DNA from: Lingula anatina
Taxonomy: Eukaryota; Animalia; Brachiopoda
Direction: 5' to 3'
Assembly: GCA_051362555.1 (NCBI GenBank)
Contig: CM120640.1
Coordinates: forward strand, 52,740,788-52,804,787
Length of the DNA: 64,000 nucleotides
Each line of letters opens with the position of its first letter. Within the stretch, counting starts at the first letter, position 1. Shown in pieces: positions 9,200-41,260 of the stretch. The position numbers and the translations under genes are program-made. A model generated the notes under the pieces. The model was given only the letters and a program-made list of their open reading frames with translations. It was not told the origin of the DNA and did no database searches.

Positions 9200-9251
<52 letters not shown>

Positions 9252-12200: not shown

Positions 12201-13158
12201 AAGTACCAACATTGGCAGTTCTGAAAATGAATAAATAATATAAAAGTCATTGATTGTATATTTGAGTATGGTCACTTTCATATTTTTGTGGCATTTTACA
12301 GCATTTATACATGCTCAGTGATAATAAACATTATTCTTTTTTCTTACTTGTATTATAAATGATTATTAATACAAGACAAAATGGTTGAAAAAAAATAATT
12401 CTCATCATTAATATGACTGATTAGACTGTTGTACTAAGTGTTTTGATTGCAAGTTGTCATTTATTGCATACACATAATCATGTAAAGGACTCTGAATCAA
12501 TGAACTTTAAACTTTCAGAATGAATGATCCCAATCTTTATAACTAATTATATTATCCATCATGTTCTGTGTCTACTTACCTTTTAGCAATGACACTGTAC
12601 CATTTCTCATCCGGTTGTATTGAAGCTTCCTCACTCTCTATCTGTAGGCTGTGATTTGCCATGGCCACACCCCCACCACTGTTCCAAACAAACCGGAGCT
12701 TTCTTTCCACTATCTCCACTGCCATGAACTCAGACTATAAATACAGAGAGAAAGTACACTGCTACTGCTCTTGATAGTAAAAGCACCAACTCATACAGCA
12801 AATCCAAAAAGGTTGCAATATTCATACATGAACTTTGTTTATATGTTTTATGATAACACAATGTACATTAAGTTGGTTTCTTGAAGCTTTCCACCTTTTA
12901 ATCCATGACAAGAAAAATGAAAATATGGCAACAACCTAAAAAGTTTGTTTTGTCAATTTTTTCTCATCCCCCACCCTCCTTAACACGGATCACACAGTTG
13001 CCTACTTTTTCTTCTCCCTGCACATAGAAGAGCAACATGTCCTTCTCTGTGTTGTTGGTCTTGAAGTTGAAACTGATGGTGTTGGTAGTGCTGGGCTTCA
13101 GCTCCTCTGTCCTGTACTCACGGTGACAACTACCACCGGCTGCCAAGGAGACTTTTAT
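4087..13158 (-). CDS. LAMA1/2: Laminin G domains LG1-LG5, 19 exons
   Basis: [11 protein letters not shown]; [19 protein letters not shown]; [20 protein letters not shown]; FHGDGYI; [12 protein letters not shown]; DDGKWHK; LCNNKWH; [19 protein letters not shown]. Confidence 0.95.
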
Positions 13159-16100
13159 CTGCAATGTGTTATGTAAGATTTGGCTATCATATAGATAAAA
13201 GACTGTACCCCTTCAATTCTAACAAGGATATATGGGCTTTGTGATGATGAAATCTGGTTACCATTCAACATAATAAATCAATGATGTGTGTGTGTGTGTG
13301 TGTGCGCGCGCGCATGCGCAGATATTCATGGCATGAGTGTGTTCCTTACATTATTGGCCTGTTCCCTAGCCTTCTGTATGCTTTCCCTGAGCTCCTCCAG
13401 GCTCTGTGACAGTGACATGTTGAGTCTGTTCAGAGCTCCAAGAGTGGTGTGGATAGAGCGGTTCACATCACGAATACCATCAAGATTATTGTTGATCTCC
13501 ATCACTAAAAGATACAAATGTTTGCATTTCATTAAAATCATGAAATGTGTCGTAATCACCATTAGAACTGGATATCTATCACTACTTAAGTGTCTTCAAA
13601 AGTTCTTTCTTAATTTTGAATCTCAGAATACAATATCCACACTGAAAATAAAATCGGTTAAAAAAATTTATATATTTATGAATCAACTATATTTCAAAAA
13701 ATAAAACATAAAATAATGAAATATATCAACCACTTACTGGTTCCAGTCATGGTCTCCAAGTCCTGCAATTCCTTGGTATTCACTTTCACAACATCAAGTT
13801 TTGGTTTGAGGTCATTGTCTAATCCTTCTTGAATAGAGTCAACACTTGTCACAGTATTCATTGCCTTTTCCAGGGCTCCAGTCGCATTATCATTAGCCTC
13901 AATGAGTTTCTCATGTATTCCTGCAGGAAGCCTGTCCATACCTTCTGTCAGACGTTCTTTGGCACTGTCCACTTCATCCATTCTCTTATTGGCCTGGTCA
14001 ATATCCTTGTCAATGCTGCCCAGAAGGTCTTTGAGGTCTTTGCTGCTATTGACCAGTCTGTTGGCTTCATTCACAAAGTCCAAGCTTGTGTTGGCTGACT
14101 TTTTGGCTTTCTCTTGCAATGTGCTGCCATCTGCTGTGGTAGTCTTGAAATGAAAACATGAACATGATAGATGTGTTATTGTTTCAGTATTTTATTTCAT
14201 ATCAATTTCTTTTAACCTGTATGTAAGTAAACTGCTCTGTGCATATACATGCATGTTTAGAACAATGTATATATTGCATACCTTATTCATGGCCTCTGAG
14301 GCCAAATCATGTGCACTCTGTGCCTCTTTCAAAGCATCATCCACAGCCACTACTATGCCTTCATACACCTGAGCAGCTTTAACTGCATCTTCTGAGGTGG
14401 CACGAGCACCCTGAAACATGCTGCAAAAAAAAAAAAAAAAAAAAACAGAGATGGATAAGTAGACAGAAATGACAAATATTATCAAATGAAATTGAATGAG
14501 AAACTAGAGGATCAGAGAGGCGATACCGCCTCCGAATATTGTACCACCAGCTGGAGCAAGCGCATTCGTATAGACCCCCACATACACAAAATAAGGGACA
14601 CAGCCACCAGTCTTTTGCTTGACAAGCTGTAAAAATGCAATCAACAAGAATTTTCAAAATATGCAAAAAAATATATCAAAAGTTCATCAAAAGGTAGGTG
14701 AAAGGTCAATTTCACAGTAAGATTGCCAGTATATGACTTCCTATTCAACTTCAAAAGTAACTTTGGACCTATCTCTGCCAGTTTGGGAGATAAAAGGGAA
14801 GCAAAATTTGCAAAGTTCAGTTCATGGTGAAAAGTAGGTCAACGGTCAATTTCAAGGTCACATTTAGATTGCCAGTGTATGACTTCCTATTCTAGATCAA
14901 TAGTAACTACGGACCTATCTCTGCCAGTTTTGGATATGAAAGGGAAGCAAAATTTTCAAAGTTCAGTTCATGGTGAAAAGTAGGTCAAAGGTCAATTTTA
15001 AGGTCACATTAAGATTGCCAGTGTATGGCTTTCTATTCAACTTCAATAGTAACTATGGACCTATCTCTGCCAGTTTTGGAGATAAAAGGGAAGCAAAATT
15101 TGCAAAGTTCAGTTCATGGTGAAAAGTAGGTCAAAGGTCAATTTCAAGGTCACATTTAGATTGCCAGTATATGACTTCCTATTCGACTTCAATAGTAACT
15201 ATGGACCTATCTCTGCCAGTTTTGGATATGAAAGGGAAGCAAAATTTGCAAAATTCAGTTCATGGTGAAAAGAAGGTCAAAGGTCAATTTCAAGGTCACA
15301 TTTAGATTGCCAGTATATGACTTCCTATTCGACTTCAATAGTAACTATGGACCTATCTCTGCCAGTTTTGGATATGAAAGGGAAGCAAAATTTGCAAAAT
15401 TCAGTTCATGGTGAAAAGTAGGTCAAAGGTCAATTTCAAGGTCACATTTAGATTGCCAGTATATGACTTCCTATTCAAATTCAATAGTAACTATGGACCT
15501 ATCTCTGCCAGTTTTGGAGATAAAAGGGAAACAAAATTTGCAAAGGTTAGTTCATGGTGAAAAGTAGGTCAAAGGTCAATTTCAAGGTCACATTTAGATT
15601 GCCAGTATATGACTTCCTATTCAAGTCCAATAGTAACTATGGACCTATCTCTGCCAGTTTTGGATATGAAAGGGAAGCAAAATATGCAAAGTTTAGTTCA
15701 TGGTGAAAAGTAGTCAGGCGGCTCAGTCCAAATTTTATCCAGAATTGTGCAAAAGATGATAACAGCATGAAATTTTCCACGATGAATGACCATTGGGTGT
15801 TTGTCAACCCCCTGATCCAAAATAGATGAACACCCAATGTTAATTCATCGGGGAAAGTTTCATGCTTTTATCATCTATTGCACAATTCTGGAAAAAATTT
15901 GGACTGAGCCACCTGACTATACCGTACTGCACATTTTGCTTTCACCACCAATATGTACTTTTTGATAGTGTAACTCGAAAACCATTTGGAATACAAAAAA
16001 ACGGAGACCACTACCAGTGTTGGGCTTTACATGCTCTACAAAATGCAAAAAAGAATGGGTCTCTAGCATTAACGGTTCCCGAATTAGAGACAGTTTTCAG

Positions 16101-19100
16101 TTTCGGCATCTTATGGCCGTTACTCCAGTGAAAATGCACCGATTGACCCCAAATTCATGGAGATGAAAGATGACTTGAAGGGTAACAATTTCCAATAATA
16201 TTATTGGTTAAGTCTGTGTAGTGTCTGAATAACAGGGAAAAAAATTTTTTCATAAAAAATATTCTTTTTTTGAAAATTTTGGCCCGTTTGACCTTGAAGT
16301 AAAGGTCAAAGGTCAAATCCAAGGGCATATTTGAAATCTACACATATGACTTTTGGAAAGCCGTCTGTAGAAATTTTTCCCATAACCCCTTCCGTAGGGT
16401 AGATAATTAGCATTTAATTTTGCCATTTTTGGACAAGGGTGCATTGCAATGAGTGCCACACCCAGACCCTAATACCGGCAAAGCCCAAATTTTACGTGGA
16501 ACGAGCTGAGATTATAGGTGACCTAAATCCAAGAGATGGGTACGGGGGCCCTTACCGTCTAGGAGGAGAAGCGATAACGGTAGCCGTCTGGCGGAGCTGG
16601 CGGAATGATCCGGACGAGACCGAAACCATGTGTACCGCCAGCGCTAACGCTGGTGGTACAATTAATACAATGGAAATTAAGAATGTATTAATAGGGGTTG
16701 AAAAATTGATTAAAAATTAATTTTTGTCTTATATAAAATTATTCATAAACAAGCACTTCAGCTTCTACCTTTACTTCAGGCATAAAAAAATTGATAACAC
16801 TTTAAAACAATAACTGATAGCATTAAAGAAGAACAAAGGTGTCTTTGGTTTAGGCATATTCCTTACTTGTCTAAGTTATCTGCTTGCATTCTCAGCTTCT
16901 CTGCCAGTTCCTCTGCTTGCCTCACTTTTGGCTCTAGATTTGGAAGATTTTGCCTCAGAAGTCCAGCAGCTATGGTCAGGTTTTCAGTGTCCTTTTTCAG
17001 CTGCTCAAGCAAGTCCTGGAACAATAAAACAAAATTCCACATAAAACTTCATAAACTATAAAAAATGAAGTTAGGAAATTTCATAATTATCATATAATTT
17101 CTTTAGAGATACACAATTTTTCATGAATACAATAAGACAAACACACAAATGTCAAAGTATAATTATTTTCAGTTTATAATGTATTATAAAATTGTAGCTT
17201 TACAGGTAACCTAAAAATACCTACCCTAAGGAATTCAGCACTACTGTTCGGTAATGTCATGTTGGCTTCTTTCAACATCTCTGAAGACATGTTCAACATA
17301 GACGAAACAGCCAGAGCTCTGGTCTGGAGAGCCCGGGTCATGTTCTGCAAAATAAAGAGAATTAAACTTGAAATATCTGACTGCAGAACAAAGTTCCAAC
17401 ACTACACAAACCTGCAGTGCAATTTTCACAATGAAAGAAAGAAAAAAACTGGGTCACCATGATATTCACTCCCATTTACCTGCAGTTTTTTTATCAGTTC
17501 ATCATTTTTCTGGTTAAGCTCCAGAGCTGCTCTAGAATCCTTGGCTGATTGCTCTGCAAGGCTGATAAGGTCATTCAACCGGTCAGCCAGCTCCTGGATG
17601 CTAATGGCAGCATCAGTCACATTGGTCAGCTTGGACTGGAGGTCACTTATACTGGACTTGAGTGCCTTGGCCAATCTGAACAAAAATTGATGAATTATTG
17701 AAGAAATTCTCTCCATGTTTTAGTCATTTGAAAAAATGATTAGTTTTTTAAAGTAACCATCTGGTGCACTGAAATGCAGTTCCATTTCTGGATGATGATC
17801 TTGCCGCTCATCTAAATTGATCCCTTAGCAATTGTATGAATGGCCCACTTTAGTACAAAATACTCATTTAAAATCTTTATCTAACTGGGTAACTTACTCT
17901 AACTCATTATCAGCATTCTCAATATTAGCTTTGAAATCCCTCTCTCTGATCATCTTCATTATGTCCTGGGCCCTCATCATTACTGAGGTCAGGTTGACAT
18001 TACCAGATAACTGATGTACATCTGGGAGGTTGTCTAGGAGATCTGATAAACAAAAGTCAAAGCAAAATAAACTACAACAATATTAATTATGTAATATTGC
18101 TTCTGATTTCCTGGTTAATTCAAATCTGTCACTGTGCACTCTCAAATTCACTGGCAAATATACAGTTGACAAATTATAAATATGTCATTTACTTTTACTA
18201 TCTACTAGTTCTGTCAATACAGGTAAGATGTGTTTGGTAATATGGCACTTCAATATTCCATGACTTATTCTCACCTCTGGCTGAAGTTATTATCTCTCTG
18301 ATCTCTTTCTCCATACCATCTGCAGTTTTGCTTAGGTTTGATGCCACCATGCTATAACCCATTGCATCATTTGCCATACTGGAAGTCTGTGCAACACAAT
18401 AAACAGTTAAGTAATTCCTCAGTGCAAAGTTATGTACAATCATGACATTGCTGACATAAGAAAATTTTTTTTTAATATGTAACTCTATTTTCTTTTTCAG
18501 TGCATAAAACGTGGAAGTATGTTCCAATATAAGTAACCACAAAATTCTAACCCTTTGCAATAAATAAAGTCCTCAAAATGACAGAAGCAGTTGGTCTCTA
18601 TGCCCTACCTGAGTATATAACTTGGTGGCATTGGCCTGAAGCTCTTTAACAATGACCTCCATATCTCCCACTTTGACTTTCCTTATAGCATCCAATTTGC
18701 CCTGGAATTTGACAAGGGGATATAGTCATTCTCTTGGTGCTTCTTTGTCATCACTTTATGCTATAGGTTATGGTTGTATTCTATGTAAGATTAACTCCTA
18801 TATAATATAGCTGTGAATCAAAGTAAATCAAATTTGCACATCACCGCCCATTTACCCAGCCATGCAAACTAACACTTTACCATGCATGTTGCTGGTACCT
18901 CTAATCAAATGTCCAAAGAAGTACCGCCATCACACTCAGATTATCTTGATTTTGAGAAACATTCTGACAGTAGTACCTGATGACTCAGGGGATCATAAAT
19001 CCTCTCCTGTGTGGTATACAACTAACACACTTACCCTAAGAACCTGGGTCTTGTTCTCCATGGCAAAGAATCTCTCCCATGGAATCACCACCATGGTGGA

Positions 19101-22100
19101 CGTGTTGACCCCTCTGACCATCACCTCCATCTCATCTACTGCCACCATTAAGTCTCTGGTACAGCCAACATCACATGCTGTAAAATATAGAGAATATACA
19201 GTCTCTGGTTGTATGCTTATAAAAATTGAATACAAGGGCATGAATTAAAAATATAAAACACAAAAATCCAAGAGTAACAGCAAATGGCTAAAATGGCAAT
19301 TTGTTAAACAATACTGACTTGTTATGTACATTGTATATGTATGTATTGAGTAAAGCAAAATCATACATAAGTGAATTACACTATTTTGGTAATTTTGACA
19401 TTTCTGACATCTTGCCACATATAATGTACATTAACTATAGAGGCAACTTGTTTGATAGTACTGCTAAGATTGGCATTAAATCTATGCAGCTTAAATAAAA
19501 GTTGAAACAATGATGATGCCAAGAATGCAACAAAAAATAGAATTTTTGTGCCTTACATTTACATCTTCCATTCACAACAGCATATCTAGGCTGACACTGG
19601 TCACAGGCCCTGCCCAGTACCCCAGGGTGACAGATACACTGGCCACTCTCCCTGTCACAAAGATTGTCCAATGAACCATCCTCACTGCAGTCACATGGTA
19701 CACATTCCCCACCCAGCTTGGTAGGATCACCATAGAAATAGTCAGAACATCTGAAACAATTTTAAGTAAGTCCAATAAAAATACTTATTGCATAAGATCT
19801 TCAAATAGAGTAATTTGTGGACATTTCAAATGAAATAGCATTAAAAAATATAATACATATTGCCAAGTTTTACTTCAGATGCTAAAGAGTGAAGTGACAA
19901 GATAACAAAGAAATCACAAAGTTACCGTTCACAATGATCTCCTTCATATCCCCTTGGACAGGCATTACACACATACCCATCGGCTGTGGCATTGGTTACA
20001 CAGGTGGGACTGAAACTGAAGAAAACAAGAACACGTAAAATTGAATTTGCCAAAAATGCACAATCAAATATTTTTATACATGTTATGTAATAATGCAAAA
20101 TTTTTGCACAAAAACATTTTGAAGAGAACAGGCTTAAAATCAAATTATTATAATTTTACATCTTACAAGTGAAAAAACACAAATAAGTCTGGCTATCTCT
20201 TACTAAACTTCATAAATAATAATGGTCTTCTATGATAAAGGTTTTTCTTTTATCTTACAAGGGGTACACAGGATGATTATACTTACTTATTCTGTGGTTC
20301 CAGTCTGGGACATCCACATGGTTGACAGGCATCCTCTCGCCCTGATGTGGCATTTCCATAGTAACCTTCAGCACAAGTATTACAGTGGTCACCTGCTGTG
20401 TTGTGAGCACAGTTCTGAAAGTAGTCATAGGTTATGGTTGTGTTAGGTGTGACTGCTGAAGTAATGATACATTAAGGAGTTAGGAGTAACTGCACTGATC
20501 ACAATCATTGGAAAAATATTTTGAGTCAAAATGAAATCAAAATTGCTCCATTTGAGAACAAAATAAAGCAGTTACGAAGAAGTAAGTTTTTCCTTACCAA
20601 GCAGACTCCAGTCTCCTTATTGCACATGTCACTGTGGCCATGACACTCACAGGGCTTGCTGATTCCTAACAGCTTGATAAGCTCAGGCTCCTCAAGGTTA
20701 CTGGATGGGAAAAAACGAAAGTAGCCAGGGGCTGGATCCTGAATAAGAGTTCAATTTAGAGTTGAAAGGTAGGTTCCTTAAACACCATGCACCTTCTATA
20801 ACATACTGCAGCATTAAACTCATCTCCATAATTAATACGTTTATATATAACATGTTATTTTATATCTTTAACTCACTATTATATTGAACTCAACAAAACT
20901 CTTGGCTCAAGATGCATAACAGCACAATCATTAAATAGCATCATGCTGAAACACAGTCCTGTATACTGATCGCACCAATTTAATCTCCTATAGGCACAAC
21001 ATCAAACATACAATTACACACCAGTTATAGTACCTGTCTTAAACTCTGTGGTGTGAAACAGACAGAAATTGTTAATACTATCACTCTGTCACACCTAGCA
21101 CACTGCCATACGTAGCACACTATCAACTGTCTCCCTCACTGTCACATTATACCTGACAAGAATGTCCTGCATACTCAGGTGGACACTGGCACCTCTCCAC
21201 ACCCAGAGCAGCCTCTCCTGCACTGGCATTGGTGGCATGCTGCAGACTCAACCCACGGATCCTATAATTAACAATGGTTTACAATGGTTGTTTTTAAAGA
21301 ACCACATAAATATAATGACATCAATCTAGCAACCAAGCTTAGAACTTTTTAAGTCAAATAACAATTTACCAAAACATATTTCAGTGCCCTTTTTATAAAA
21401 ATGCTTTACTTTAAAGCAATAATTAAAGCAGTCAAAAACCCCAGTCCATCGTGAACCTTGTCTCAGTCTATCCTGTATTACAATAACTTAATCTTGATAA
21501 GTTATCATTGTTTCAGTTAGGCATCACCACTTGACAACCTGTCTACTTACTCAGCATATTTGAGATTAGAATTCCCTGATGCTCGTATCTTGATGCTCTG
21601 TAAATTCTGCAGTCCCACCATTAACATCTCTCTGGTGACTGGCTTGCTGGGCTGGAGGGGGTCTGTCCACTGGTCCTGGAGATAACAGAAACAATCTTAA
21701 TATTATATCACATCTAGATCATCACACAAAATCAATCTGATTTGCCACTTGATGATGAACAATAAAGGTGTGTTTATATATAACAACAAAAACATATTTT
21801 ACCTCTCTCAGAAAAATCTCAAACTCATTCTCTACTCCAGGAGTCAATGGAGCAAAGTAGTCCAGGACCACACGGAAATTCCCAGTAATACGGACAAGTG
21901 GGAATCTTCTGTACTCAGAATGGTCCACTATGGGGATAGGGAGTGTGTTCAGGGAGTCTTGATCTTCAAAGTAGATCACAAACTTCAGCTTGCCATAGTA
22001 AGACAAGGTCTGAAAGAAGAAAGAACTGAAATACTGCAGGCCTTAAATCAACACTTTTTAATCTCAGATAGGCATTAATTTGACTACTGACAACACATCA

Positions 22101-25100
22101 GTTGCCTTATTTTTATACTGCAAGGTCGTATCTCTTTTGCTGACATACATGCATCCATTTTTAATTTCAAAATTTTATCTTCCAACTTTGACAATTCAAT
22201 TTGTTTATCATCTAATCACATATCACATTCTTCACCCACAATTTGTCACAGCTATAACCTCCTAACCTTATCACCCAGGAACTTCCTGGGAGCACTCCAG
22301 TATAGAGGGCGCTCCTCATCAGGTGAAGTGACAAAGATGGCATCTGCATCTGGAGGGATTACATGAAGGGCTGGTTCAATTGTGGTCACTGACACACCAT
22401 CAAGTTGCACTCTTACACTCCTTGTAGGCATTTCAGTCTTAAAAAACATGTGCGATACATTTCAATTTATGCTGTGTAAAATAAGACATTTACTGAAATT
22501 ACATCAGACTCACGTCAAGCTAAACCCTCTACTCCATCTTTAATGTAGCGGACATTGAAGTGGCTGTTTTTTTTTGTTTTTTTTTCTTGTGAAAGGCAAT
22601 AACCAAAATAAGAATATTTACTTTTCTGTTCTTAAGAAGATGATGCATTTTTTATTGTACATATCTTAAAAATTAAACGTTTACTTTACATTGGCTTCAC
22701 TGATAAATTGCTGTCAATAAGCAAATAAGCTTCCTAAAAATATTTATTTAAAACAGTCTCAGTCCCTCATTAACTTTGACCTGGGCAACCAGAATTAACA
22801 TACACAACTTCCTAAGTAGCTTAAACGGGTATTCTTAACAACCACATTTACCATGTTCCATGTGAGCTGAGCTTGTTCACAAATGTTTGACTTTCCAAAA
22901 CAGAAGCAGGAAGTACAGCCTTCAGGGTTGTTGGACTGCAGACTGAAGCTGCCTTCTTTGCAGTGTTTGCACTTCAAACCCTCAACATTCCCCTAAGAAA
23001 TGACAATACACAATTTGCACTGGTAACTTAGAACCTACATACAAAAAAATCCATGTCAAATCAATATACATTAATCAATCTAATGTAATGACTATAATAA
23101 TGAATTGATATGATGTTAATCAGATCTTACTTATTCTACATTTTACTCTATAAATGATTAAAAATGTGAACCTCTCATTTATGTTACAACCAATTTCTTA
23201 CATAAAATCTTTTTATTTTGGTCATTTTAGCAACACTTCACCCCCATGTTGACAGAGCCTAAACGTACCCTGCAAGGACACTGTCCATCTTCTTGGCACT
23301 GACAGTGACCTTTGGCATTACAGTCAGACATGACGGTTCCATTCTCATTACAGTGACAAGGACGGCAGTTAGGGAATCCAAAATGGCCAAAGCGACACAT
23401 ATCACATTTCATGCCATCATACTCTGGTCTGCACTCACATTGACCATCCACAGTGTCACACTGAGTGTCCAGGGAACCAGTCACGTTACAGTTGCATTGC
23501 TGAATGCAAAGAAAAAGAAAATATGCATACATTTTTTCTTGAATTCACAAAAATGATGAAAATATCTTTTAAAAATTTTCATTAACTAAATGAGCACCCA
23601 AATTTATTGCTAAATATAATAATTTCAAATTTAATAATTTCAGCACAAATCAAAAAGCTTTTTGGTACATCAAACTCTCATTTCAAAAACTCACTGCAAC
23701 ACACACCCCTTCTTAAGAATTAGTGGCATTAAGTACTTCTATCCTTGTTGACACCTGTTACATCTTACCTTACATCCTAACAGCTGATCATGTCCCCAGG
23801 TGTCTGGCACACAGCGCTCACACCTGTCACCCTCAGTATTGGTGGGACACACACACTCTCCTGTCACTGCATCACACACCTGCCCAGCCACAGGGCACAC
23901 AGGACATTCTGGAGAAGAAAAAAAGTATTAATTATATGGTATAAATATATTTCTGCACATTAGTAAATCATGCTGAATCAGTGCACAAGCTGAGGTAGTT
24001 AGCTTGAAAACTGAACAGAACTGTGTTAATTGTTACCTGTGCAGCCATTTGAAGAGAATCCATAGTATCCTGGTCTACACTGGTCACACTTCTGTCCAGT
24101 CACTCCTGGCTTACAGGGGCACTGACCACTGGTCACGTCACACTGCAGTGAGGTGGAACCTGTCACATCACAGTCACATGATTGACAGCCATTGCCAGAG
24201 TCCAAGTCATAGTAGTTGATCTGAAACAGTGGCAAAAATTAGGAACAGTACAATATTATTGTTTGAGATTAATTCTAATTACAGAGAGCAGTGTGAATAT
24301 TTTTATAAAATTATCTTTCAAAGTCAAATGTAGCAACCTTTGTGTTTAACAATTTTGCTATAATCAAATGCTGATGACAGTTTGTGTTATTCTATCATCT
24401 CAAAACTCTGAATTGTGGTTACTTATGCTAAACTTTCCACACCAATATAAAACTAAAAAAAGGAACATATCCAACTATCACTTTGGCCACTCTTTCCTAA
24501 TCTTTCTCAATAAAGCAACTACTTAAACATAAGCACCATGGCCAGAAAAATCGCTATCTTCAAAATTTTTCATTTGCAAGAGTTAACACTGCCTACCTCA
24601 CACTGGTCACATTTGTCTCCTATCACATTAGGCTGACAGGTACATGTCCCTGTCACCAAGTCACACTGGCTGTCATTAGAACCTTTCAGGTGACAATCAC
24701 AGGCTGGAACACACAATATGCAACCACAGTATTGTTATTCATATTAACACTGTTCAAAAACATTCATACTGTACTTGAATGGATATTTCTGAATATATAT
24801 CCAATCTACTATGATAAGTCTCAGCTGTCAGTGATGTATTTCATGCACAGGAACTGACATTTGATTTAACATTTGCACAATTGTCAACAATGAAATTAAG
24901 CTTTTGCTACTTATTTCTGCACAAAAAAAGTGCCATGTTGTTCTCATTTACTGCCAAAATTTTGAAAATGCTATGGTAACAAAAGTGATCCCCTAGACAT
25001 CTTTTTTTTCCATTTAGTATAGGAGGCAAGAAAAAACAAACTATGGAAATAGACCACATATAACTCACCTTTGCACCCTTCCTCAGAATACTCCCAGTGG

Positions 25101-28100
25101 TCAGGCAGACATGAGCCACAGTACTGACCACCCACACCATTTTTACAAGGACACTGTCCACTGACTTGGTCACACAGGTTGGACACAGACCCAGTCAAGT
25201 TACAGCTACACCTAGGACAACCTGCTATAATGTTACCATAGCCAGCCTGAAAAAAACAAAAATGGCAACAGAAGTTCGTGAAAATTTAAAAACAAGTTAT
25301 TGTCAGTCTAGTTGACACTGAAAAATACACAATAGCCAAATCAACAACCCTACAGCAAAACTTCAAAACAAGATTGGCAACCACTAAGGTGTAAGTTTTA
25401 ATACAAAAATCTTTGAACCCATTAAAACAGATTGAGTTTTGGTGAGCAAAAGGTAAATGGTTATTATGCTTCAAACAGAAAATGAGATGTCATCCCAGTC
25501 AAAAAATTTCATCTAGATACATGTAAATATGTTGTATCACACCCCTGTGTGCTATGCCAGACAGTGTATACTCACCACACAAGAGTCACATGCCCTGCCT
25601 TCATAGTATGGTCTGCAGGAACACTGGCCTGACCTCTGATCACAGGAAGTACCTGTAGACCCATACTGGTTACAGTCACACTCTGGAATGAGGGTTCAAA
25701 TTAAATCCACATGAAATTCTACTTCATGGGGTCAACATACCTCATACCTTTATATATCTTTAAAAAATTGTTTATCATTTTAATTATGAAGGGGCTAGCT
25801 GTTTTTACATCAGAGCACTCATTCTAAGTACATGGAAACTGACAGTAACACATTAACAGCATAATTTTTAGTTGCAAATGTGACTTGCATCATAGGTTAA
25901 TTATTGGAACTTAAAAGGAGTCTGCATTGTTTGAAATCATTGTTTTCATAATTCCATACTATCATTTCAAAAGCAATTTCTGCATGCCAAGCACAAACCT
26001 TTACATCCCTTTCCATACACCATCCCATAATAGTCTGGTTTACATTGTGCACAGTTCCAGCCTTCAGTATTAAAGAGGCATTTGAGGCACTGTCCTGTCA
26101 TACGATCACAATTGCCTACCGCGTTGGGATTGATGTTACCACTGCAAGCACAAGGCTGACAATAGTTGCCTGGGACCAAGGGGTTACCAAAGTAACCATC
26201 ATCACACCTAAAAAAGAGAAAAAAAATTTGTAGCAAATACAAACTGTCACAACTCATACCCAGTCCCTCACATCTAACACATGCAATATTCAAATTCGCA
26301 CAGGTTCAATGACGTATACTTATTCCCAACTGACATTTTTTAAGACCTGTTAAATACCTGACTATATATATCTATCTAAATATTTATCAAGTTTGATACA
26401 AACTGAAGTTCTCAGTGCATGTCCCATAGAGAAGGCACTTCAGTTTATTCAAGTGCAAACACAATGAATGAAGATAACCGCAGAATTTAAAGGATGTGAT
26501 ATTAACCTGGACTTGACCAGACAGAAAAAAAAAACTTCTATTTATTTAAGAAAAATAAGACAATCAAATTTCTTCAAGTGTGTCTCATCTTTGAAGTGTA
26601 GAAACAGGAATACTCACATTTCACAATGGTTTCCAATATAGCCATCAGGGCAAGACACACAGAAGTACTCTTCCTGAGAGCCAGGGGGAGCTGCCATACA
26701 GTTCGATGCAAAGTTATTGGTGCTGATTGCCAAAGGACAAGCACATGGTCTGCAATCATTGGGAGTGCCTCTAGTAGCATTGCCATAATAACCAAATTCA
26801 CAATTCTCACAATGTGGTCCTACGGTATTGTCTCTGCAACTCTGAAAGAACAAAGTGAAACATAGGAAAAATATGACAGTGATAATGATTTTAATGTTAA
26901 AACAGGTCTAGCCTTGGCTCATAGCATAAAAGTAAAATAAGTATTACTGTATGGCATATGAAAATAATGCTCGTTTTATGACAAAATTCATACATTTTAC
27001 ATACATTTTATTTTGTTGCTATGGAATATCCTCTTACCATAATTTCTCTAATCTTTTCCATCAATCACTGGTACACGTACAATTACTTTTTAGATTCAAC
27101 TTAAAATTGTATTCTTGAGTAGGATGTGACTGTGTTAGATACACGTGCTAGGTTTAATAGTGATATCTTGTCAAACATTCGGTATTGTACTTACAGTACA
27201 GAGCCCACTAGAAGCCTCACAGGTATCAGCATGGTTATTACAATTACACTGCTCACAAATTCCACCATACAGCACATCGTTCACACGACGGTGTCCACGC
27301 TCACACACCTGCAAGCACGATGCATGGCAAACAAAAATTACAACAAATATTTTCACCCAGGAGATCGCAAAGCACATCATAGTTAATAAACCCCAAGACC
27401 CAAACTTTTCCACTTCAATATTGAAATATAGATGAGATACCAACACAGCCAAGCCTGAGTATGTACATTATTATCTTTTTAAAGAGACCATTATTCATCA
27501 TCTTATCTGCGTGGCTTATAACTGTCACACCACAATGATATGACACCAGTGCTAGCGGAGTAATGTAAACAGTTATCTTGATGTGGTCAGTTCTTCACAA
27601 ACACAAGGACAGAGGCTGTCTGTGTTACTATCATCTACAACACCCCTGCTACGCAGGGGTCAAGACAAAATTTGAACATTGTTATCATTCAGATACACTA
27701 CAGCTACGTAGTTAGCATGTGGATGGGGTTAATATTCTGTCAAATGTCATCATAAACATCTATATTAGTGAATCTACTGTAATCATTATAATAACAACTG
27801 GCCATGTCCCCTGTGTCCTTCTTAATGACTGGTTTAAATAGAATGTATATAATGTCTGTTTTGGCATGTATGTTCTAAGTGACTCTGTTGACATGCATTC
27901 TCCACTTTAAAAATCCCTGTTAGTCTGTGAACAATATCTGTTCTTTGTGAATTCTTAATGACTGCGTGTAAACATGTATCTAATCTACAATATTGTTAAA
28001 CAAATACATATAACATAGATTTAACAAAACAATAACCAATTATTAAAAATACATGTTAATACGAGTCCATATAATATTAAAGTACAAATAAGGAAACATT

Positions 28101-31100
28101 TATTTACGAATAAACACACATTTTCTATAATTGTTCAATGACTCACTTACATATGTTCATTAAAACAAGAGAAGACTTTTAACATTCAAGGTGAATCAGA
28201 ACATAAACATCAAGCTAAGTATTAAGACTGTCTAAAGTAGATGCAAGTTAGAAAATGTAATATAAAATAGTGGTAGAGGTATGAGTTGATTAGCTGACAG
28301 AACATCACAAGACAAAACAAGCAAATGCATAATCCCTTGCCCAAAACAAAATATAAAACTTAAAAAATAAAAAGCACTCAAAAACAAAATATCTACAAAA
28401 TATCTACTTTTCTGACACCAATAAGTCATCAGTGTTATTTTCATTGATGTGAACACAAGACCATTCTACAATAACTACTTTTTGCCCTTTTGTTGACAGT
28501 TTTTGTTATTTTTCTAGTTTTCTATAATTGTCCCATTCTGAATGAGTTTTTTTCTGATCCTAGATCACACACTGGTTACTCTTCAATGTCTCTCCATTTG
28601 ACCAAGTAGTTAGCATCTTCTATAACTAAATGTTTTTATTTATTATTTTTGTCCTACAATCATTAATTCCCTAACACTGACCAGTTTCTGCCTTTCTGAA
28701 CCTGAATATTGAATATTGCTTCAATCCATCTTTACTTAAGTTATCTCAAATTCTAGGTTAAGCTACTGCTCAGCTATTTAAAAATTCCTTTGCATTTTGC
28801 GCGTCGCAACAGAGTCATGCATTTAGTTTTGTATTGATAGCACCAGCATTTACATGACAGTCTATTCCATTATCATTCTTTTAATAAGACATTTTTAGAA
28901 CCTTAACCATAATTACAAATAAAAAATGCTGGTGCCACAATGATTCTGTTATTAACTGAAATTACAGCATTTGTAAAATCCCCATTTATGTTTTCACAAA
29001 AATCACCTGACTCATATTCCCAATATGTTTCTCTCCAGTCTCTGTCAACTGTTGAAAGGCAGGAAAGAAATAATCAACATGAAATACATATCAGAGTCAT
29101 CTGTATAAATCTGTCCATCTCTTTCACATGATATTGTACAGTTCATAATTTTTAAAGTTTTGTTATAATTTTTTACCTTTACCTTCTTATATGTTCCTCC
29201 ATCATCAAATGCATTAAAAATGATTAAATTTTTTTAGTCACAGTGCAAAACCAATATATCTGATACATTATTCACAGTGATGTGCTGAACTGTTCTGTTT
29301 GCAGTCTTTAATACTTCTCCCCCCTTCGACATTCTTCCAGGCATTTAAATTATTTCAACTTCTTGTAGCTTGTGTTCACTTCCAGTTTGGTCACCTTCAG
29401 TATAGTACTATAACTTTTAAGACATTGGTTTTCCCCCCATATCCCTTCCCCTTCCAAAATCTCTAAGCCAAAAACACATTTGAAAAAGACAACACAACAC
29501 AATAAAAGTAAAGGGAACACATCACAAACAGATAAAGCAAAGAATGAGCATTATATATGGTGCAAACTCAAAGAAGCTAAAGGAGAAAATGTCAAAAACA
29601 CCACACGAAGCAAAATATACAAAGCCAGCAAAAAACAATTTAACTTGTTAAAATGAAAACAATAAAGCTTAAGCCTGCATATAAAATCTTAAATAATTTG
29701 AATATTACATTTACTTAACTTCTATGTTCTTCTTAGCATTCACTGAAGCCAAATTTTACATTTCATGCAACAAATAATAAAAAATCAATAACTTTCAAAA
29801 AAGGTTTTCAATAATAATGCCATATCAAACATAGCGTTACCTCACAAGACAAGCCTGAGTATCCTCTAGGACAAAAACACTGTTCTACAGAGGACATGAT
29901 AGAGGGTGAGGTAGAGTTCTCCACAGCCACATCCATGGCCATATCAAGAAATCTGAAATGTTGAGGAAAAACACATGAAGTCATATCCGGTATGCATTTA
30001 TAACATCATGATCTTACAGACAAAATATGTTGTTATTGCTTACACTTTTTAACTTACCAGAATATCAATTAACAGTATATACTGATATGTGGAGGACACA
30101 TATAACTATACATTTTTGTAATATAACTACTGTGGTATTTGAATTTCTAGCTGCCCAATCACTTTGTGCCCAACTATAAAAGATGCACAGTGGTCAAATA
30201 ATGGTAACAAAACAAAACAGCTGACAAAATTCTTACTGAATCTGTGTCTGATGGATGTGATAGGACGCTCGTATCAGGAGGCGCTCAATGTTGGCCAACA
30301 CAGTCATGAACTCTTGTCTGGTAACAATCTGTTGCTTTGGTAACCCTGTGTCAGGATCAACGTGATACCAGTCCCGTTCTGTCAAGAAGACTTGCATAGT
30401 GTTCTCCAGTCCTTCCCTGTAGTACCGGCCTCCATAGCCAATCAGCAGCTCATTTCCCTATAAAGAATTACATAGTGCACTGGATATCTAAAGGTGGTAA
30501 CATTTCAAGGACGGATACCTTATTTATGTGGAAGTTTAATCAATGCACTTTTCAAAATATTTACAAGCTGAATATTCTGCGTCTGATCTTCTGACTTCTG
30601 AACAAAACTAGAGGATCAGAGAGGCGATACCGCCTCCGAATATTGTACCACCAGCTGGAGCAAGCGCATTCGTATAGACCCCCACATACACAAAATAAGG
30701 GGTGCAGCCACCAGTCTTGTGCTTGACAAGCTGTAAAAATGCAATCAACAAGAATTTTCAAAATATGCAAAAAATATATATAACTAAAAATGGTGCAATC
30801 AAAGTTAAGTTCATTGTAGGGTAGGTCAAAGGTCAATTTCAAGGTCACAGTAAATTGCCAGTATATGACTTCCTATCCAACTTCAATAGTAACTATGGAC
30901 CTATCTCTGCCAGTTTTGGAGATAAAAGGGAAGCAAAATTTGCAAAGTTCAGTTCATGGTGAAAAGTAGGTCAAAGGTCAATTTCAAGGTCACAGTAAGA
31001 TTGCCAGTATATGACTTCCTATTCAACTTCAATAGTAACTATGGACCTATCTCTGCCAGTTTTGGAGATAAAAGGGAAGCAAAATTTGCAAAGTTCAGTT

Positions 31101-34100
31101 CATGGTGAAAAGTAGGTCAAAGGTCAATTTCAAGGTCACATTTAGATTGCCAGTATATGACTTCCTATTCAACTTCAATAGTAACTATGGACCTATCTCT
31201 GCCAGTTTTGGAGATAAAAGGGAAGCAAAATTTGCAAAGTTCAGTTCATGGTGAAAAGAAGGTCAAAGGTCAATTTCAAGGTCACAGTAAAATTGCCAGT
31301 ATATGACTTCCTATGCAAGTTCAATAGTAACTATGGACCTATCTCTGCCAGTTTTGGAGATAAAAGGGAAGCAAATTTTGCAAAGTTCAGTTCAAGGTGA
31401 AAAGTAGGTCAAAGGTCAATTTCAAGGTCACAGTAAAATTGCCAGTATATGACTTCCTATTCAAGTTCAATAGTAACTATGGACCTATCTCTGCCAGTTT
31501 TGGAGATAAAAGGGAAGCAAAATTTGCAAAGTTCAGTTCATGGTGATAAGTAGGTCAAAGGTCAATTTCAAGGTCACAGTAAGATTGCCAGTATATGACT
31601 TCCTATTCAACTTCAATAGTAACTATGGACCTATCTCTGCCAGTTTTGGAGATAAAAGGGAAGCAAAATTTGCAAAGTTCAGTTCATGGTGAAAAGTAGG
31701 TCAAAGGTCAATTTCAAGGTCACATTTAGATTGCCAGTATATGACTTCCTATTCAACTTCAATAGTAACTATGGACCTATCTCTGCCAGTTTTGGAGATA
31801 AAAGGGAAGCAAAATTTGCAAAGTTCAGTTCATGGTGAAAAGTAGGTCAAAGGTCAATTTCAAGGTCACATTTAGATTGCCAGTATATGACTTCCTATTC
31901 AACTTCAATAGTAACTATGGACCTATCTCTGCCAGTTTTGGAGATAAAAGGGAAGCAAAATTTGCAAAGTTCAGTTCATGGTGAAAAGAAGGTCAAAGGT
32001 CAATTTCAAGGTCACAGTAAAATTGCCAGTATATGACTTCCTATTCAAGTTCAATAGTAACTATGGACCTATCTCTGCCAGTTTTGGAGATAAAAGGGAA
32101 GCAAAATTTGCAAAGTTCAGTTCATGGTGATAAGTAGGTCAAAGGTCAATTTCAAGGTCACAGTAAGATTGCCAGTATATGACTTCCTATTCAACTTCAA
32201 TAGTAACTATGGACCTATCTCTGCCAGTTTTGGAGATAAAAGGGAAGCAAAATTTGCAAAGTTCAGTTCATGGTGAAAAGTAGGTCAAAGGTCAATGTCA
32301 AGGTCACAGTAAGATTGCCAGTATATGACTTCCTATTCAACTTCAATAGTAACTATGGACCTATCTCTGCCAGTTTTGGAGATATAAGGGACTAAATGTT
32401 ATAATTTTGGAGTTACCATAATGTGCCATAAATTTCCTACAGAAAAAATTAATTAAAATAAAGAAAAGGTCATTTTGGTCAAAGTTCTTGAAATGGGAGG
32501 TTCTCTGAAGTTGCAGAAGTTTAAATTTGATAAAATAATGTCATTTTTGACCACAAGTTGTCTGCTTTGCCAAGCATTATGTTTTATTTTTCCGGAGTTC
32601 AAAATTTATTATCCATTACCGTACTGCACATTTTTACGGAAGCCGACTGGTGCCATATGTTGAAAAAAAAAAATTATCTCGAAATTTCGAGATAGCATTT
32701 TTTTTGTTCAAATTTCAAAATACTATCTCGAAATTTCGAGATAAATTTTTTTGCTCAAATATCAAAATGCTATCTCGAAATTTCGAGATAATTTTTTTTT
32801 TTGTTCAAATTTCAAAATGCTATCTCGAAATTTCGAGATAAAAATTTTTTTTGTTCAAATTTCAAAATAGTATCTCGAAATTTCGAGTTAATTTTTTTTT
32901 CTACATATGGCACCAGTCGGCTTCCGTACATTTTCCTTTCACCACCAATATGTACTTTCTGATACAGCGTAACTCGAAAACCGTATGGAATACAAAAAAA
33001 CCGAGACCACCTACAGTGTTAGGCTTTACATGCTCTACAAAATGCAAAAAAGAATGGGTCTCTAGCATTAACGGTTCCTGAATTAGAGACAGTTTTCAGT
33101 TTCGGTATCTTATGGCCGCTACTCCTGTGAAAATGCACCGATTGACCCCAAATTCACGGAGATGAAAGATGACCTGAAGGGTAACACTTTCCAATAATAT
33201 TATTGGTTAAGTCTGTGTGGCGTCTGAATAACAGGGCAAAAAAATTTTTTTTCGTAAAAAATTTCATTTTTTTGAAAATTTTGACCCATTTGACCTTGAA
33301 GTAAAGGTCAAAGGTCAAATCCGAGGGTATATTTGAAATCTACACATATGACTTTTGGAAAGCCGTCTATAGAAATTTTTCCCGTAACTCCTTCTGTAGG
33401 GTAGATAATTAGCATTTAATTTTGCCATTTTTAGACAAGGGTGCATTGCAATGAGTGCCACACCCAGACCCCAATACCGACAAAGCCCAAATTTTACGTG
33501 GAACGAGTTGAGATTATAGGTGACCTAAATCCATGAGATGGGTACGGGGGCCCTTACCGTCTAGGAGGAGAAGCGGTAACGGTAACATGGCGGCGGAGCC
33601 GGCGGAACGGAACGGACGGGACCGAAACCATGTGTACCGCCAGCGCTAACGCTGGTGGTAAATTTTTTTGTTCAAATTTCAAAATAGTATCTCGAAATTT
33701 CGAGATAATTTTTTTTTCTACATATGGCACCAGTGGGCTTCCGTACATTTTCCTTTCACCACCAATATGTACTTTTTGATACAGCGTAACTCGAAAACCG
33801 TATGGAATACAAAAAAACCGAGACCACCCCCAGTGTTGGGCTTTACATGCTCTACAAAATGCAAAAAAGAATGGGTCTCTAGCATTAACGGTTCCCGAAT
33901 TAGAGACAGTTTTCAGTTTCGGTATCTTATGGCCGCTACTCCTGTGAAAATGCACCGATTGACCCCAAATTCACGGAGATGAAAGATGACCTGAAGGGTA
34001 ACACTTTCCAATAATATTATTGGTTAAGTCTGTGTGGTGTCTGAATAACAGGGCAAATAATTTTTTTTTCGTAAAAAATTTCATTTTTTTGAAAATTTTG

Positions 34101-37100
34101 GCCCATTTGACCTTGAAGTAAAGGTCAAAGGTCAAATCCGAGGGTATATTTGAAATCTACACATATGACTTTTGGAAAGCCGTCTGTAGAAAATTTTCCC
34201 GTAACTCCTTCCGTAGGGTAGATAATTAGCATTTAATTTTGCCATTTTTGGACAAGGGTGCATTGCAATGAGTGCCACACCCAGACCCCAATACCGACAA
34301 AGCCCAAATTTTACGTGGAACGAGTTGAGATTATAGGTGACCTAAATCCATGAGATGGGTATGGGGGGCCTTACCGTCTAGGAGGAGAAGCGGTAACGGT
34401 AGCCGTCCGGCGGAGCCGGCGGAACGATCCGGACGAGACCGAAACCATGTGTACCGCCAGCGCTAACGCTGGTGGTACAATAAATAAACATGCAGTCTAT
34501 CATGGCTTTCATTATTCCACTACATGCATTGCTAATTCTCAGACAAGTATACATTCATTTCCCTAAGTATGAAGTCATCCGGTACACATTCTTAAAAAAT
34601 GTTTTGCATAAAAAGTTCCTTACTTCCATTATTACATCCAAGTCTGCAGTGTATGCTGTGTTAACATCTTCTAATCGCTGGACCACATAGTACATGTAAT
34701 AGGTCAAGTTACCACCATAGGAGGCAAGCTAGGTAGAAAACAGGTTATGAAGTTAATATTCAATGCATAATCATGTAGAATATGAACATTTAAAGGTCAT
34801 CCCAAACAGATTTTGCAGCATCCTTAATAATTTCTACTAAAAAATACATACATACAGTTGTGGTGTCAAGCCAGATATCACGATTTGAAAGTTTGATTGC
34901 TTGCATTCAAGAAAATAAGTAGCTATATAAATACTAGTTTTTGGAATTTTTTAATAAAAACTAAATACAGCCAACAAATTCCATGACAAATGGGACATAA
35001 AGATGCGTTTTCTCTCTCTCTCTCCAACAATCTCATTCAACTATCTCATTTAAGAACAATTTCACGAGACTTTAATTACATGCATAATCTATAGTACTAA
35101 TGTATGACTAAGACAAACAGCATAAAAAATTTCAACTAATCAGTCATGCTGGTTAATTCTTCAGCATCATGCATGTGATTACAAATTAAAATATACAACA
35201 TTAAGTAATTATAAGCCAGGTATGATACACAAAATAATTGAGTGTCAACCCCCTGGTATTTACAAAATTCTCACAGATCAATTCACACTATAAATCTGAA
35301 TATCAGAACCAAACCACTTGTTATAAGGTAGAATTTGGATGAATAACAAACATAAAAAATATGCAAGTGAATATATATATTTATATATAGCACACACCCC
35401 TTCACCAACTTCCACATGACTAAAAACAAATGATTGTTTTAAATATATTTTTTCATTTCTTTTCCAAAATAAATGAATCGTTTTTGAGCAACTTTTCACA
35501 TGTTATCCAAACCCCATGGATTAAGAATTAATTTGCCAAACAGCTGTCAAATTCAGAGGATAATAATATTTAAACATCTTATTTTTGTAAAAAAAATAAA
35601 GATTAATCAAGCCAAGAACATATAATACACAATTAGGGAACAAAACTTTTTAACAGACAATATGACAAGACACTGAACACAAAAAATGCAGGCATGACAT
35701 GCTTGATGTTTGGCACAATCATATTTTTAAAAACCATGCAATTATAGCTTTAAGAGATCAGTAGGTAGCTTCACTATCAAAGCAAAAATCAAAGATTGTT
35801 ATCTGTGAAATGAGAAACTGATTTGAAATTAGGCTTTACACTATAGCAATTGTCATAAAATGCTGGGGCCAATTCCATAAAAGCATTCTAACTTAGCATG
35901 ATACTAGGCCTTAGAATGATTCTAAATCCCTAGTTGTATACTTGTTAGCAATCAACTAATTTCTATTCCATAAAACCAAACTAAGAATCATTCTTACTAG
36001 TTGCTTGCTAAGATTTGGCTAGAATGGTGTATTCATAGGAAAACCACAAAACCACAGGGTCAGTTACGCCAAACAAAAGGCAGTGACAGTGAAAGTTGAG
36101 CTGATTGCAGGCTGAGGGAAGTACTGGTCAAGGCATTCCCATGTATTCTTTAAAGGCCCTATACAGAAAGGGGTCAAAATGGCAACTTCAGGGAAGAGAC
36201 AACGAAAGCCCAATTATTCAACACAAGAAAATCTCTTTATAGCCGAATGCTATGAAGAATTTAAGGACACATTAGATAGTCAACACAAAGATGCTAACAC
36301 CAATGCTAGGAAAAATAAAGCTTGGGAAAGCATACTTAATCAGCACAAGTCCAAATGACCAAAAAAAAAAAAAAAATGTCCAACGGATTCCTTCTATCCC
36401 GAAACACTCGTTCCCGCCGCATTGCTCTGCGGAGTTCCACTATTTCTAAAATTCTCCTGGCCATCCTTACACCTCGGAGGTGTGGGTAGAAATTAATTAG
36501 AATGATACTAGTGATTTAGAAGAGACCCAGACCTACTCTAACTTTAGCATGAAACTTAGAACTATACTAGGCTTAGAATGGTTTTATGGAATAGAGTTAG
36601 TAGGTAACTAGAGATAGAATGACGTTTAGCAACCAACTAGGGCTTAGAATGGTTTTATGGAATTGGCCCCAGATCTCCATATAATTGCTTCATTGTACAT
36701 TATATCAAACACATCTTGTCTGCATCGAACCTGTCCCACTATACACAGAAACATTTACTGACTGATCCTGGAAAATGAAACAAATATCACAAGTCCCACT
36801 GTCCAATACTAGGCTACAACTGCTGCATGAGTGAGCAACCTAAGCACACAGCTAGCCACCTAGAATACCCAGTCTTACCTTGTTACCAAGAAAGTTAGCC
36901 TGGAGTTCAAAATAAGGTCAAAGGTCAGACTAAAAAATGTAGGTCAAAAGTCAAACTAAAATCAATAAACTAAGGATGAAACCAAGTTGAATTAGGTGTA
37001 TACAGAAGATGACTATGTGCTTAATAAATATCTTACTAAGATGCTTTCCAAAGGCAATTGTAATACTGTGAAGATTTTTTTCTAAAAAAAGTGGTATATA

Positions 37101-40100: not shown

Positions 40101-41222
40101 TTTAACAGCATAATGACTATCAATTTTTAATAATAAAATATTAGTATCATGGATATTCAGAAAATGTGACTAGCAAAGGTCTTCAGGCCCATGGAACTTC
40201 AAAGTCACAACTTGAAAATGCCAAAATGTAAACAAGACAGCACTGTTCTGAAATGTTTTTTTTTTTTTTTCATTTTTAAAAATTTTTAACATAAAACAAA
40301 ATTAACAGTTTACGGTAATGTGCCATGAATTTCGAACAGTAAAAAATAATTAAATTTGGGAAAAGATCGTTCTGGCCGAAATTCATGAAATGGAGGTGCT
40401 CAGAACTTCCGAAAGTTCGAATTTCATGGAATTCTGTCAATTTTGACCGGAAGTTGTCTGTTCGTCGATAGGCCTTCTGTTATCTTCTCCCGACGATCTA
40501 TTTAGAGTTACCATAATGTATGATGTGTGAATGTCGGTAATTGCGACCAAAGGTATACACGTACTTTCACCCGATCACTGTGTATGGCCCATAGATAGAG
40601 CGGTACTGTTGTCTAGGGCCGCAAAACAGCATCGTTATCAGTAGTGTCGTTTTTCAAAAGCGATTCTGGCAGCCAGAAACAAGTGTCGTTTTTCAAAAAC
40701 GATCCTGGCGCTCAGAACGGGAGTGAACGAAGGGAGAGACGGCCGACGATTAGCGTCTGCCACGGCCAGATAACCTTTACTATGGAAGCTTAGTGTTACC
40801 GTTGCTCCTTTCCGTGCACTGAAACTGAGACGACAGCCGATCAGTGTCTATGGCGCACGTGCAGGTAGCCTTCATCTGCGATAAGTGTCTTCCGCGACCA
40901 GGTTCGTTGCCTTTGCCATTTAAGTCGGGCGGAGCTTTACGCGCGAATGCGTCCTCATCTCGCCGTTCGCGGGTAGGTGTCTCCGGCGCATACGTAGCCT
41001 TCCCTGCAGAAGCCGGCCTCGGCACTACGGCCTCTCCTCCGTGCGGGGAGGCCACTACGACCGCAGATCGGTATGTGCAGCGCACAGGTAGCCTTAGCCA
41101 CGGCAGCCGAACTGTGTATTACGGTCTCTCTCCGTCGTGCGCTGCGACCAAGATGACCGCTGATTGTTGTCTGCGATCAAATATACTAGGTTTGGGGGGG
41201 GGGGGGGGGGGGGTGCAGGGCC

Positions 41223-41260
<38 letters not shown>

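What the first reader, a model, noticed from the sequence alone, without database searches (positions are those of the whole stretch)
27195..27600. Hidden signal peptide and internal promoter: candidate headless laminin alpha-1/2 isoform
Seen: the 72 nt of intron directly upstream of the exon following L4a are open and in frame. They read [32 protein letters not shown] (ATG at 27380, A at -3), i.e. short N-region with Lys, hydrophobic core and small-residue A-S-C cleavage motif. The acceptor has an atypically weak pyrimidine tract, as expected if it also codes. TATAA, GATA and Fox motifs lie 120-200 nt upstream. Known: vertebrate laminin alpha3A is made from an internal LAMA3 promoter, and alpha3A/alpha4 begin at the analogous half-LE (xC..G..R...C) after an L4 domain; chains lacking LN do not form the normal polymer network. 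Inference: this gene may independently produce a ~2500-aa secreted alpha chain lacking LN, LE1-5a and L4a through a hybrid first/internal exon. I know of no such isoform for alpha1/2-type chains, but could not search.
Basis: partly seen in the sequence, partly recalled or inferred. Interest (0 to 1): 0.88.

Follow-up and report, generated by a model that had tools for sequence, protein, structure and literature searches.

The report
Signal-peptide look-alike in a laminin intron
The end of one intron in a brachiopod's laminin gene spells a start codon and an export-signal-like peptide in frame with the rest of the gene; this is likely a by-product of the intron's T-rich splicing signal rather than a second start, with about a one-in-five chance that it makes a short laminin chain of the kind known from mammals and reported for flies.

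Summary
ATG 27380 opens 24 codons in frame with exon 14 of 60 of the Lingula anatina laminin alpha1/2 gene (99.1% to XP_013397032.1). A headless product would be 2502 aa.

For: it is the best signal-like leader of 60 acceptors (chance 0.1-0.7% per acceptor, 7-36% per gene). The site is disulfide-clean and is the gene's most CpG-rich acceptor.

Against: the leader fills a 94-nt AG-free, T-rich zone whose branch-point-like A is the 'Kozak' A. Codon choice is intron-like and the core has no leucine. None of four RefSeq isoforms starts here. None of 125 alpha1/2-like proteins starts here behind a signal peptide. The two runs with spliced reads show none on the extension, but coverage is thin.

The idea has precedent in alpha1/2: Drosophila wing blister has a downstream start whose product is reported to lack LamNT (PMC11724274). 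Verdict: likely an ordinary splice acceptor (0.72); real headless isoform about 0.22.

The parts
4084..54460 (-). Laminin alpha1/2 (wing blister type) gene: 60 constitutive coding exons in the window, 3080 aa without a stop; the first 124 residues of the RefSeq protein are not in the model
   Evidence: exon model; 99.1% to XP_013397032.1 residues 125-3218
27195..27308 (-). Exon 14 of 60, phase 0/0: C7-C8 of the L4a-split LE repeat and C1-C4 of the next repeat
   Evidence: present in all four RefSeq isoforms; cysteine numbering recalled
27309..27380 (-). Met-led 24-codon in-frame leader (candidate signal peptide), also the 3' end of the intron
27382..27386 (-). Branch-point-like TTAAC at -78; its second A is the -3 A of the ATG; near the start of a 94-nt AG-free zone (2nd longest of 60)
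   Evidence: role as branch point inferred from the consensus
27327..27353 (-). T-rich tract (15 T of 27, 4th of 60) that encodes the hydrophobic core
27415..27468 (-). Out-of-frame upstream ORF of 17 codons, A at -3, inside the proposed 5' UTR
27471..27491 (-). In-frame 6-codon upstream ORF in strong context, at the proposed start site
27503..27578 (-). TATAA (27520), GATA (27508, 27578) and Fox-type (27571) motif matches
   Evidence: 4% of intronic 100-nt windows hold all three
29007..29048 (-). 42-nt cassette exon, 14 residues inserted between C6 and C7 of the same LE repeat; in RefSeq X1, X2, X4, skipped in X3
29841..29952 (-). Exon 13: end of L4a and C4-C6 of the split LE repeat
   Evidence: joint 29952-30237 seen in reads

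Best explanation
The 72 bases are likely just the working 3' end of an intron in the full-length laminin alpha1/2 gene, and the signal-like peptide is likely a by-product of that splice signal. A branch-point-like TTAAC at -78 is followed by a long T-rich zone without AG that leads to the acceptor at 27308. T-rich DNA reads as Phe, Val and Ile, an AG-free zone cannot hold TAG, and the branch A supplies the -3 A of the ATG. The gene makes full-length chains (3211-3225 aa in RefSeq X1-X3) that vary by two small cassette exons. Shown: sequence anatomy, exon chain, RefSeq isoforms. Inferred: use of the branch point, and absence of an internal start.
For: Branch-like motif, AG-free zone (2nd of 60) and T-rich tract (4th of 60) coincide with the leader. 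Synonymous codon choice scores -5.45 bits: introns average -3.7 (sd 3.8, n=58), exons +4.5 (sd 4.1, n=59), and 1 of 59 exons is lower. The 14-residue core has no Leu, against at least one in 38 of 38 laminin N-termini (a few of these are truncated models) and none in 32 of 523 simulated chance leaders. Similar leaders arise elsewhere: 2 of the other 59 acceptors pass the heuristic at 2.0, 1 at 2.5; 4 of 55 homologous introns read through pass at 2.0, 1 at 2.5, 0 at 3.0, a set biased towards passing. None of 6 members of the Lingula cluster starts here. Of 125 alpha1/2-like proteins, 11 aligned from beyond reference residue 200; one is full length, and the other 10 start at residues 254-610, none at 741 and none signal-led. 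In X8 and X9, which carry spliced reads, depth is 0 on 27313-27469, about 5.5 on the two upstream exons and 2.6 on the three downstream exons, so no upward step. Two upstream ATGs in good context lie in the proposed 5' UTR. In human hybrid first exons the pyrimidine signal is strong, so a weak tract is not diagnostic (PMC11797052 passages).
Against: The leader is the best of 60 and passes the heuristic at 3.5, while only 9 of 38 real laminin N-termini pass at 3.0. Simulated chance per acceptor is 0.75% at 2.0, 0.35% at 2.5, 0.13% at 3.0 and 0.025% at 3.5; the last thresholds are fitted after the fact. It falls at one of only two sites in the gene that match the junction where alpha3A joins. 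The exon has the highest CpG density of 60 (4 in 114 nt; o/e 0.68 against 0.17), the 72 nt have the highest GC of 60 (0.40 against 0.30), and the 500-nt window has the highest CpG o/e (0.60, next 0.56 and 0.55). The motif trio occurs at 1 of 31 acceptors with long introns; the candidate's window holds all three. An AG-free zone is also what a hydrophobic coding stretch would give, so it is not independent evidence. The RNA test rests on 62 reads.
Confidence: 0.72

Rival explanations
1. A weak, tissue- or stage-restricted promoter near 27520 would start a transcript whose first exon runs into exon 14. The 24-codon leader would act as a signal peptide, predicted to be cut after Ala-Ser-Cys, giving a chain of about 2480 aa without LN, LE1-5a and L4a but with all cysteines paired, the coiled coil and five LG domains. 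It would trimerise and bind receptors but not polymerise on its own, like alpha3A and alpha4.
For: Top signal-like score of 60, per-acceptor chance 0.1-0.7%; start at the C7-C8 pair, the junction type at which a LAMA3-like exon also begins (P0071; label recalled); top CpG and GC ranks; motif trio; precedents in mouse Lama3a and Drosophila wing blister, whose downstream start takes 81% of use in young wild-type ovaries.
Against: Not among four RefSeq isoforms; no counterpart in 125 relatives; no reads on the extension in the two runs with spliced reads; in X1 the extension bin (0.98) is close to the mean of that intron (0.71) and reads run past the proposed start; intron-like codons, no Leu, upstream ATGs.
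Confidence: 0.22
2. Low-level internal starts would occur here (the local CpG excess marking an enhancer or weak promoter), but most would begin at or after the acceptor or be silenced by the upstream ATGs, so no secreted short chain would accumulate.
For: CpG excess and motif trio; human hybrid first exons mostly start at the 3' splice site itself (PMC11797052 passages).
Against: No place where many molecules begin was listed in either lay (thin coverage); three CGT arginine codons give 3 of the exon's 4 CpG, a chance of about 6% at the gene's CGN share of 57 of 149.
Confidence: 0.06

Closest known systems
Lingula anatina laminin subunit alpha-2, RefSeq XP_013397031.1-XP_013397034.1 (isoforms X1-X4)
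   Same: The same gene: 99.1% identity over 3094 columns; all four hold this exon as an internal exon.
   Different: None starts at this exon; X1-X3 carry the full N-terminus, X4 starts at residue 125 without a signal peptide.
Laminin alpha3A (LAMA3A)
   Same: LN-less chain from an internal promoter of a long alpha gene (PMC8388930, PMC2790989 passages); joins at the C7-C8 half repeat after an L4 domain (recalled; fits P0071).
   Different: Belongs to the alpha3/5 class and joins after the last L4 (recalled), here after L4a; uses a separate first exon 39 that alpha3B skips (PMC12071823 passages), whereas this would be an extension of a shared exon; proven by cloning and RT-PCR.
Drosophila wing blister (laminin alpha1,2) downstream-start isoforms RC, RD, RE, RF
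   Same: Same alpha1/2 class; two start sites with CAGE support; LamNT is reported only for the upstream start (PMC11724274 section 20).
   Different: Where its short products begin and whether they have a signal peptide could not be read: the text is ambiguous and the supplement was not readable.
Hybrid first-internal exons
   Same: One exon serving as first exon in some transcripts and internal exon in others (PMC11797052 passages; 10.1101/2021.05.27.446076 listing only).
   Different: Described in human transcriptomes, with strong pyrimidine tracts and starts mostly at the splice site; here no start is shown.

Membership tests
Laminin alpha1/2 (wing blister / LAM-3 type) gene | LN, two L4 (Laminin_B) domains among LE repeats, coiled coil, five LG domains, about 3200 aa | tested here: met
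   Pfam Laminin_N on exon 54460 and Laminin_B on exon 30457; 99.1% to XP_013397032.1, best other hit Owenia 42.6%; the second L4 and the LG domains were read from the exon translations
LN-less alpha chain from an internal promoter (alpha3A type) | Transcription start inside the intron | tested here: inconclusive
   62 reads in 8 runs; no start pile-up; no extension reads in X8 and X9; X1 reads at intron background
LN-less alpha chain from an internal promoter (alpha3A type) | Own cleavable signal peptide | tested here: inconclusive
   Passes a home-made heuristic at its strictest setting; no Leu in the core; SignalP was not available
LN-less alpha chain from an internal promoter (alpha3A type) | Separate first exon spliced onto the shared exon | tested here: not met
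   The leader is contiguous with exon 14; the only other exon found in this intron is a 42-nt cassette with no in-frame ATG in its 15 open upstream codons
LN-less alpha chain from an internal promoter (alpha3A type) | Begins at the C7-C8 half repeat after an L4 domain, cysteines paired | tested here: met
   Exon translations, after L4a; disulfide pattern recalled
LN-less alpha chain from an internal promoter (alpha3A type) | Isoform on record as mRNA or protein | tested here: not met
   0 of 6 cluster members; the unspliced leader ORF is not in the collection
LN-less alpha chain from an internal promoter (alpha3A type) | Leader conserved in close relatives | not testable with these tools
   No DNA of another lingulid or allele was reachable; distant homologous introns show no shared leader
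Hybrid first-internal exon | More reads leaving the exon downstream than entering it from upstream | tested here: inconclusive
   No joint at this exon reached the listing limit of 3 reads; upstream exons deeper than downstream in X8+X9, 5.5 against 2.6

The most novel reading that the evidence does not exclude
Lingula makes a secreted, non-polymerising laminin alpha1/2 chain of about 2500 aa by starting transcription inside an intron and reading the intron's own branch point and T-rich tract as start context and signal peptide: an independent invention of the alpha3A design at the L4a junction, born by taking over a splice signal.
Probability: 0.22. Interest if true: 0.55.

Novelty: not a real feature. 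Interest (0 to 1): 0.2.

Why it matters
If the best reading holds it matters little: the gene is annotated, and the case is a caution that T-rich intron ends often read as signal peptides. If the isoform is real, it would be a further origin of an LN-less laminin alpha chain from an internal start (after LAMA3A and, as reported, Drosophila wing blister), the first I found for a spiralian in ten paper searches, and it would show how a splice acceptor can be turned into a signal-peptide exon. It would then be a new variant of a known kind, not a new kind.

Tried and rejected
Whole genome: none held. Word searches with the extended exon found nothing among 115-2000 aa proteins or 37-119 aa proteins; this is weak, since the Lingula proteins sit under a 3218-aa representative. 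No RNA holder was listed for the stretch; 8 of the 9 same-label runs were laid (X6 was not), 6-30% of each was read, and X4 and X5 gave no reads, so they are no test. Metagenome scans: 0 exact DNA matches; one locus, L001, an intron-free perlecan-like stretch (label recalled) of no use here. ESM Atlas: only EGF-like leads at 0.79 or below. The bacterial promoter scan is not suited to this gene. Earlier findings: nothing on laminin; two other hidden-leader cases in other genes. Papers without bearing, passages seen: C. elegans touch preprint 10.1101/2022.02.11.479800, LAMA2 thyroid preprint 10.64898/2026.07.23.740299, Hox preprint 10.64898/2026.05.18.725834. Martin 1999 (PMC2148222 passages) saw only 11 and 10.5 kb wing blister transcripts on Northerns, so it does not confirm the short fly forms. 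Rejected: the cassette exon as a hidden first exon (no in-frame ATG); the CpG-rich block at 40250-43750 as the internal promoter (it lies among repeat copies; not tested further). No structure or complex was predicted; neither would bear on a transcription start.

Full report
Gene. The region is on the minus strand. Sixty exons from 54460 to 4084 join into 3080 codons without a stop. The model is 99.1% identical to residues 125-3218 of Lingula anatina laminin subunit alpha-2 isoform X2, XP_013397032.1; the next hit is Owenia at 42.6%. Pfam places Laminin_N and Laminin_B on single exons. It is the wing blister / alpha1/2 type with two L4 domains.

Observation. ATG 27380 opens 24 codons in frame with exon 14 (27308-27195, phase 0). 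A chain starting there would have 2502 aa and lack 602 modelled residues plus the 124 before them. It would begin at the C7-C8 pair of the LE repeat that L4a splits, so all cysteines after the predicted cut would be paired (pattern recalled).

Chance. Of 60 acceptors, 11 have 24 or more open codons and 13 have a Met-led candidate; this one scores best, 2.83 against 2.47, 2.33 and 2.13. With a stricter home-made rule (charge-free hydrophobic window, non-negative n-region, -3/-1 rule), 3 of 60 pass at 2.0, 2 at 2.5 and 1 (this one) at 3.0. In 20000 simulated intron ends the rate is 0.75%, 0.35% and 0.13%, or 36%, 19% and 7% for a gene of 60 acceptors. The same rule passes 29, 20 and 9 of 38 real laminin N-termini, and 4, 1 and 0 of 55 homologous introns read through. 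Those 55 remain after dropping 7 without an anchor, those above 320 aa and those whose upstream part is the previous exon. So the leader is good, and it sits at one of two alpha3A-like junctions, which makes the coincidence about 1 in 100 or rarer. That is real but modest evidence, chosen after the fact. SignalP could not be run.

Sequence signs in favour. The exon has the highest CpG density of 60 and the 72 nt the highest GC; the 500-nt window has the highest CpG o/e, 0.60, with 0.56 and 0.55 close behind. In a CpG-poor gene body that would suit a less methylated regulatory site (inference; three CGT codons give most of the exon's share). TATAA, GATA and Fox motifs together occur in 4% of 682 intronic windows and at 1 of 31 acceptors.

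Sequence signs against. A branch-point-like TTAAC lies at -78 and its second A is the -3 A of the ATG. The 94-nt AG-free zone is the second longest of 60 and the hydrophobic core is the fourth most T-rich tract. This one layout accounts for the open frame, the Phe/Val/Ile core and the weak last 15 bases, though a coding core would also lack AG. Codon choice is intron-like, -5.45 bits, lower than 58 of 59 exons. The core has no Leu, unlike 38 of 38 laminin N-termini, but only 32 of 523 chance leaders lack Leu too, so this is a weak sign. Two ATGs in good context (27491, 27468) lie in the proposed 5' UTR.

Annotation and relatives. The Lingula cluster has six members: X1-X4 (3225, 3218, 3211, 3102 aa) and two fragments from another contig; none starts at this exon. 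X1, X2 and X4 include a 42-nt cassette exon from this same intron (29048-29007), which shows that the annotation resolved small events here. Among 206 long proteins fetched, 125 are alpha1/2-like; 10 are N-truncated beyond reference residue 200, starting at 254-610, none at 741 and none signal-led. These come from the best 120 of 4320 hits and 18 clusters; no Drosophila wing blister and no other brachiopod was named among them.

RNA. Eight of nine same-label runs were laid on 25900-30600, giving 62 reads. X4 and X5 gave none. X8 and X9 carry spliced reads: depth about 5.5 on the two upstream exons, 2.6 on the three downstream exons and 0 on 27313-27469. X1 has depth 0.98 on that bin, but 0.71 on average over the whole intron, and its reads run past the proposed start to the 27470-27626 bin. 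That is unspliced RNA, not a start. The test has little power and the tissues are unknown.

Known systems. LAMA3 makes alpha3A from an internal promoter, and chains without LN cannot polymerise on their own (PMC8388930 passages). Alpha3A uses its own exon 39, which alpha3B skips (PMC12071823 and PMC2790989 passages). Drosophila wing blister, the alpha1/2 orthologue, has two CAGE-supported starts; the downstream one gives RC-RF and 81% of use in young wild-type ovaries, and LamNT is reported for the upstream one (PMC11724274, section 20 read). Its supplement, which may give the short forms' domains, could not be read; the 1999 Northerns showed only 11 and 10.5 kb bands (PMC2148222 passages). 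In human hybrid first exons the pyrimidine signal is strong and starts cluster at the splice site (PMC11797052 passages). Ten searches listed no paper on a short Lingula laminin isoform; most hits were seen as listings only.

Verdict. Ordinary acceptor with a signal-like reading 0.72; real headless isoform 0.22; unproductive internal starts 0.06. These odds are my judgement, not a computed result. If real it is a new variant of a known kind. Interest 0.2.

Noticed in passing
window 29007-29048 (-): 42-nt cassette exon inserting 14 residues, with an N-M-S sequon, between C6 and C7 of the L4a-split LE repeat; in RefSeq X1, X2, X4. The pattern search found such an insertion only in Lingula among 206 long proteins.
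   Followed up: partly
window 36879-36899 (-): 21-nt microexon at the start of L4a, included in RefSeq X1 and X3 and skipped in X2.
   Followed up: partly
window 27309-29840 (-): Poly(A)-selected runs X1, X3, X7 and X9 have unspliced reads across this intron (sense-stranded in X1 and X3) and none in five bins of neighbouring introns. It may be a slowly spliced or retained intron, or the tail of a head-only, LaNt-like transcript: read-through stops 10 codons after exon 13 with cysteines C1-C6 paired, and AATAAA lies at 28644 and 28104. A-rich runs at 28650 and 28514 could also capture it. About 15 fragments only.
   Followed up: partly
window 14690-15713 and 30800-32391: Two arrays of the same 146-bp tandem repeat (6.9 and 10.9 copies, about 94% alike) in different introns.
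   Followed up: no
window 15931-16667, 32843-33660, 33660-34486: Three copies of an element of about 740-820 bp, 92-97% alike and CpG-rich, next to the 146-bp arrays; probably a mobile element.
   Followed up: no
window 38235-39982 and 50457-52233; 40250-43750: A 1.8-kb segment occurs twice at 95% identity, beginning right at the acceptor of exon 38211; a 3.5-kb CpG-rich block (o/e about 1 or more) lies among partial copies, probably nested insertions.
   Followed up: no
window 7784-8000 (-): Exon encoding a Thr-rich, mucin-like linker within the LG region.
   Followed up: no
P0207, P0214, P0216, P0181, P0295, P0143, P0234, P0269: Several mollusc and arthropod RefSeq alpha1/2 isoforms lack LN and start at internal methionines without a signal peptide; they may be internal starts or incomplete models.
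   Followed up: no
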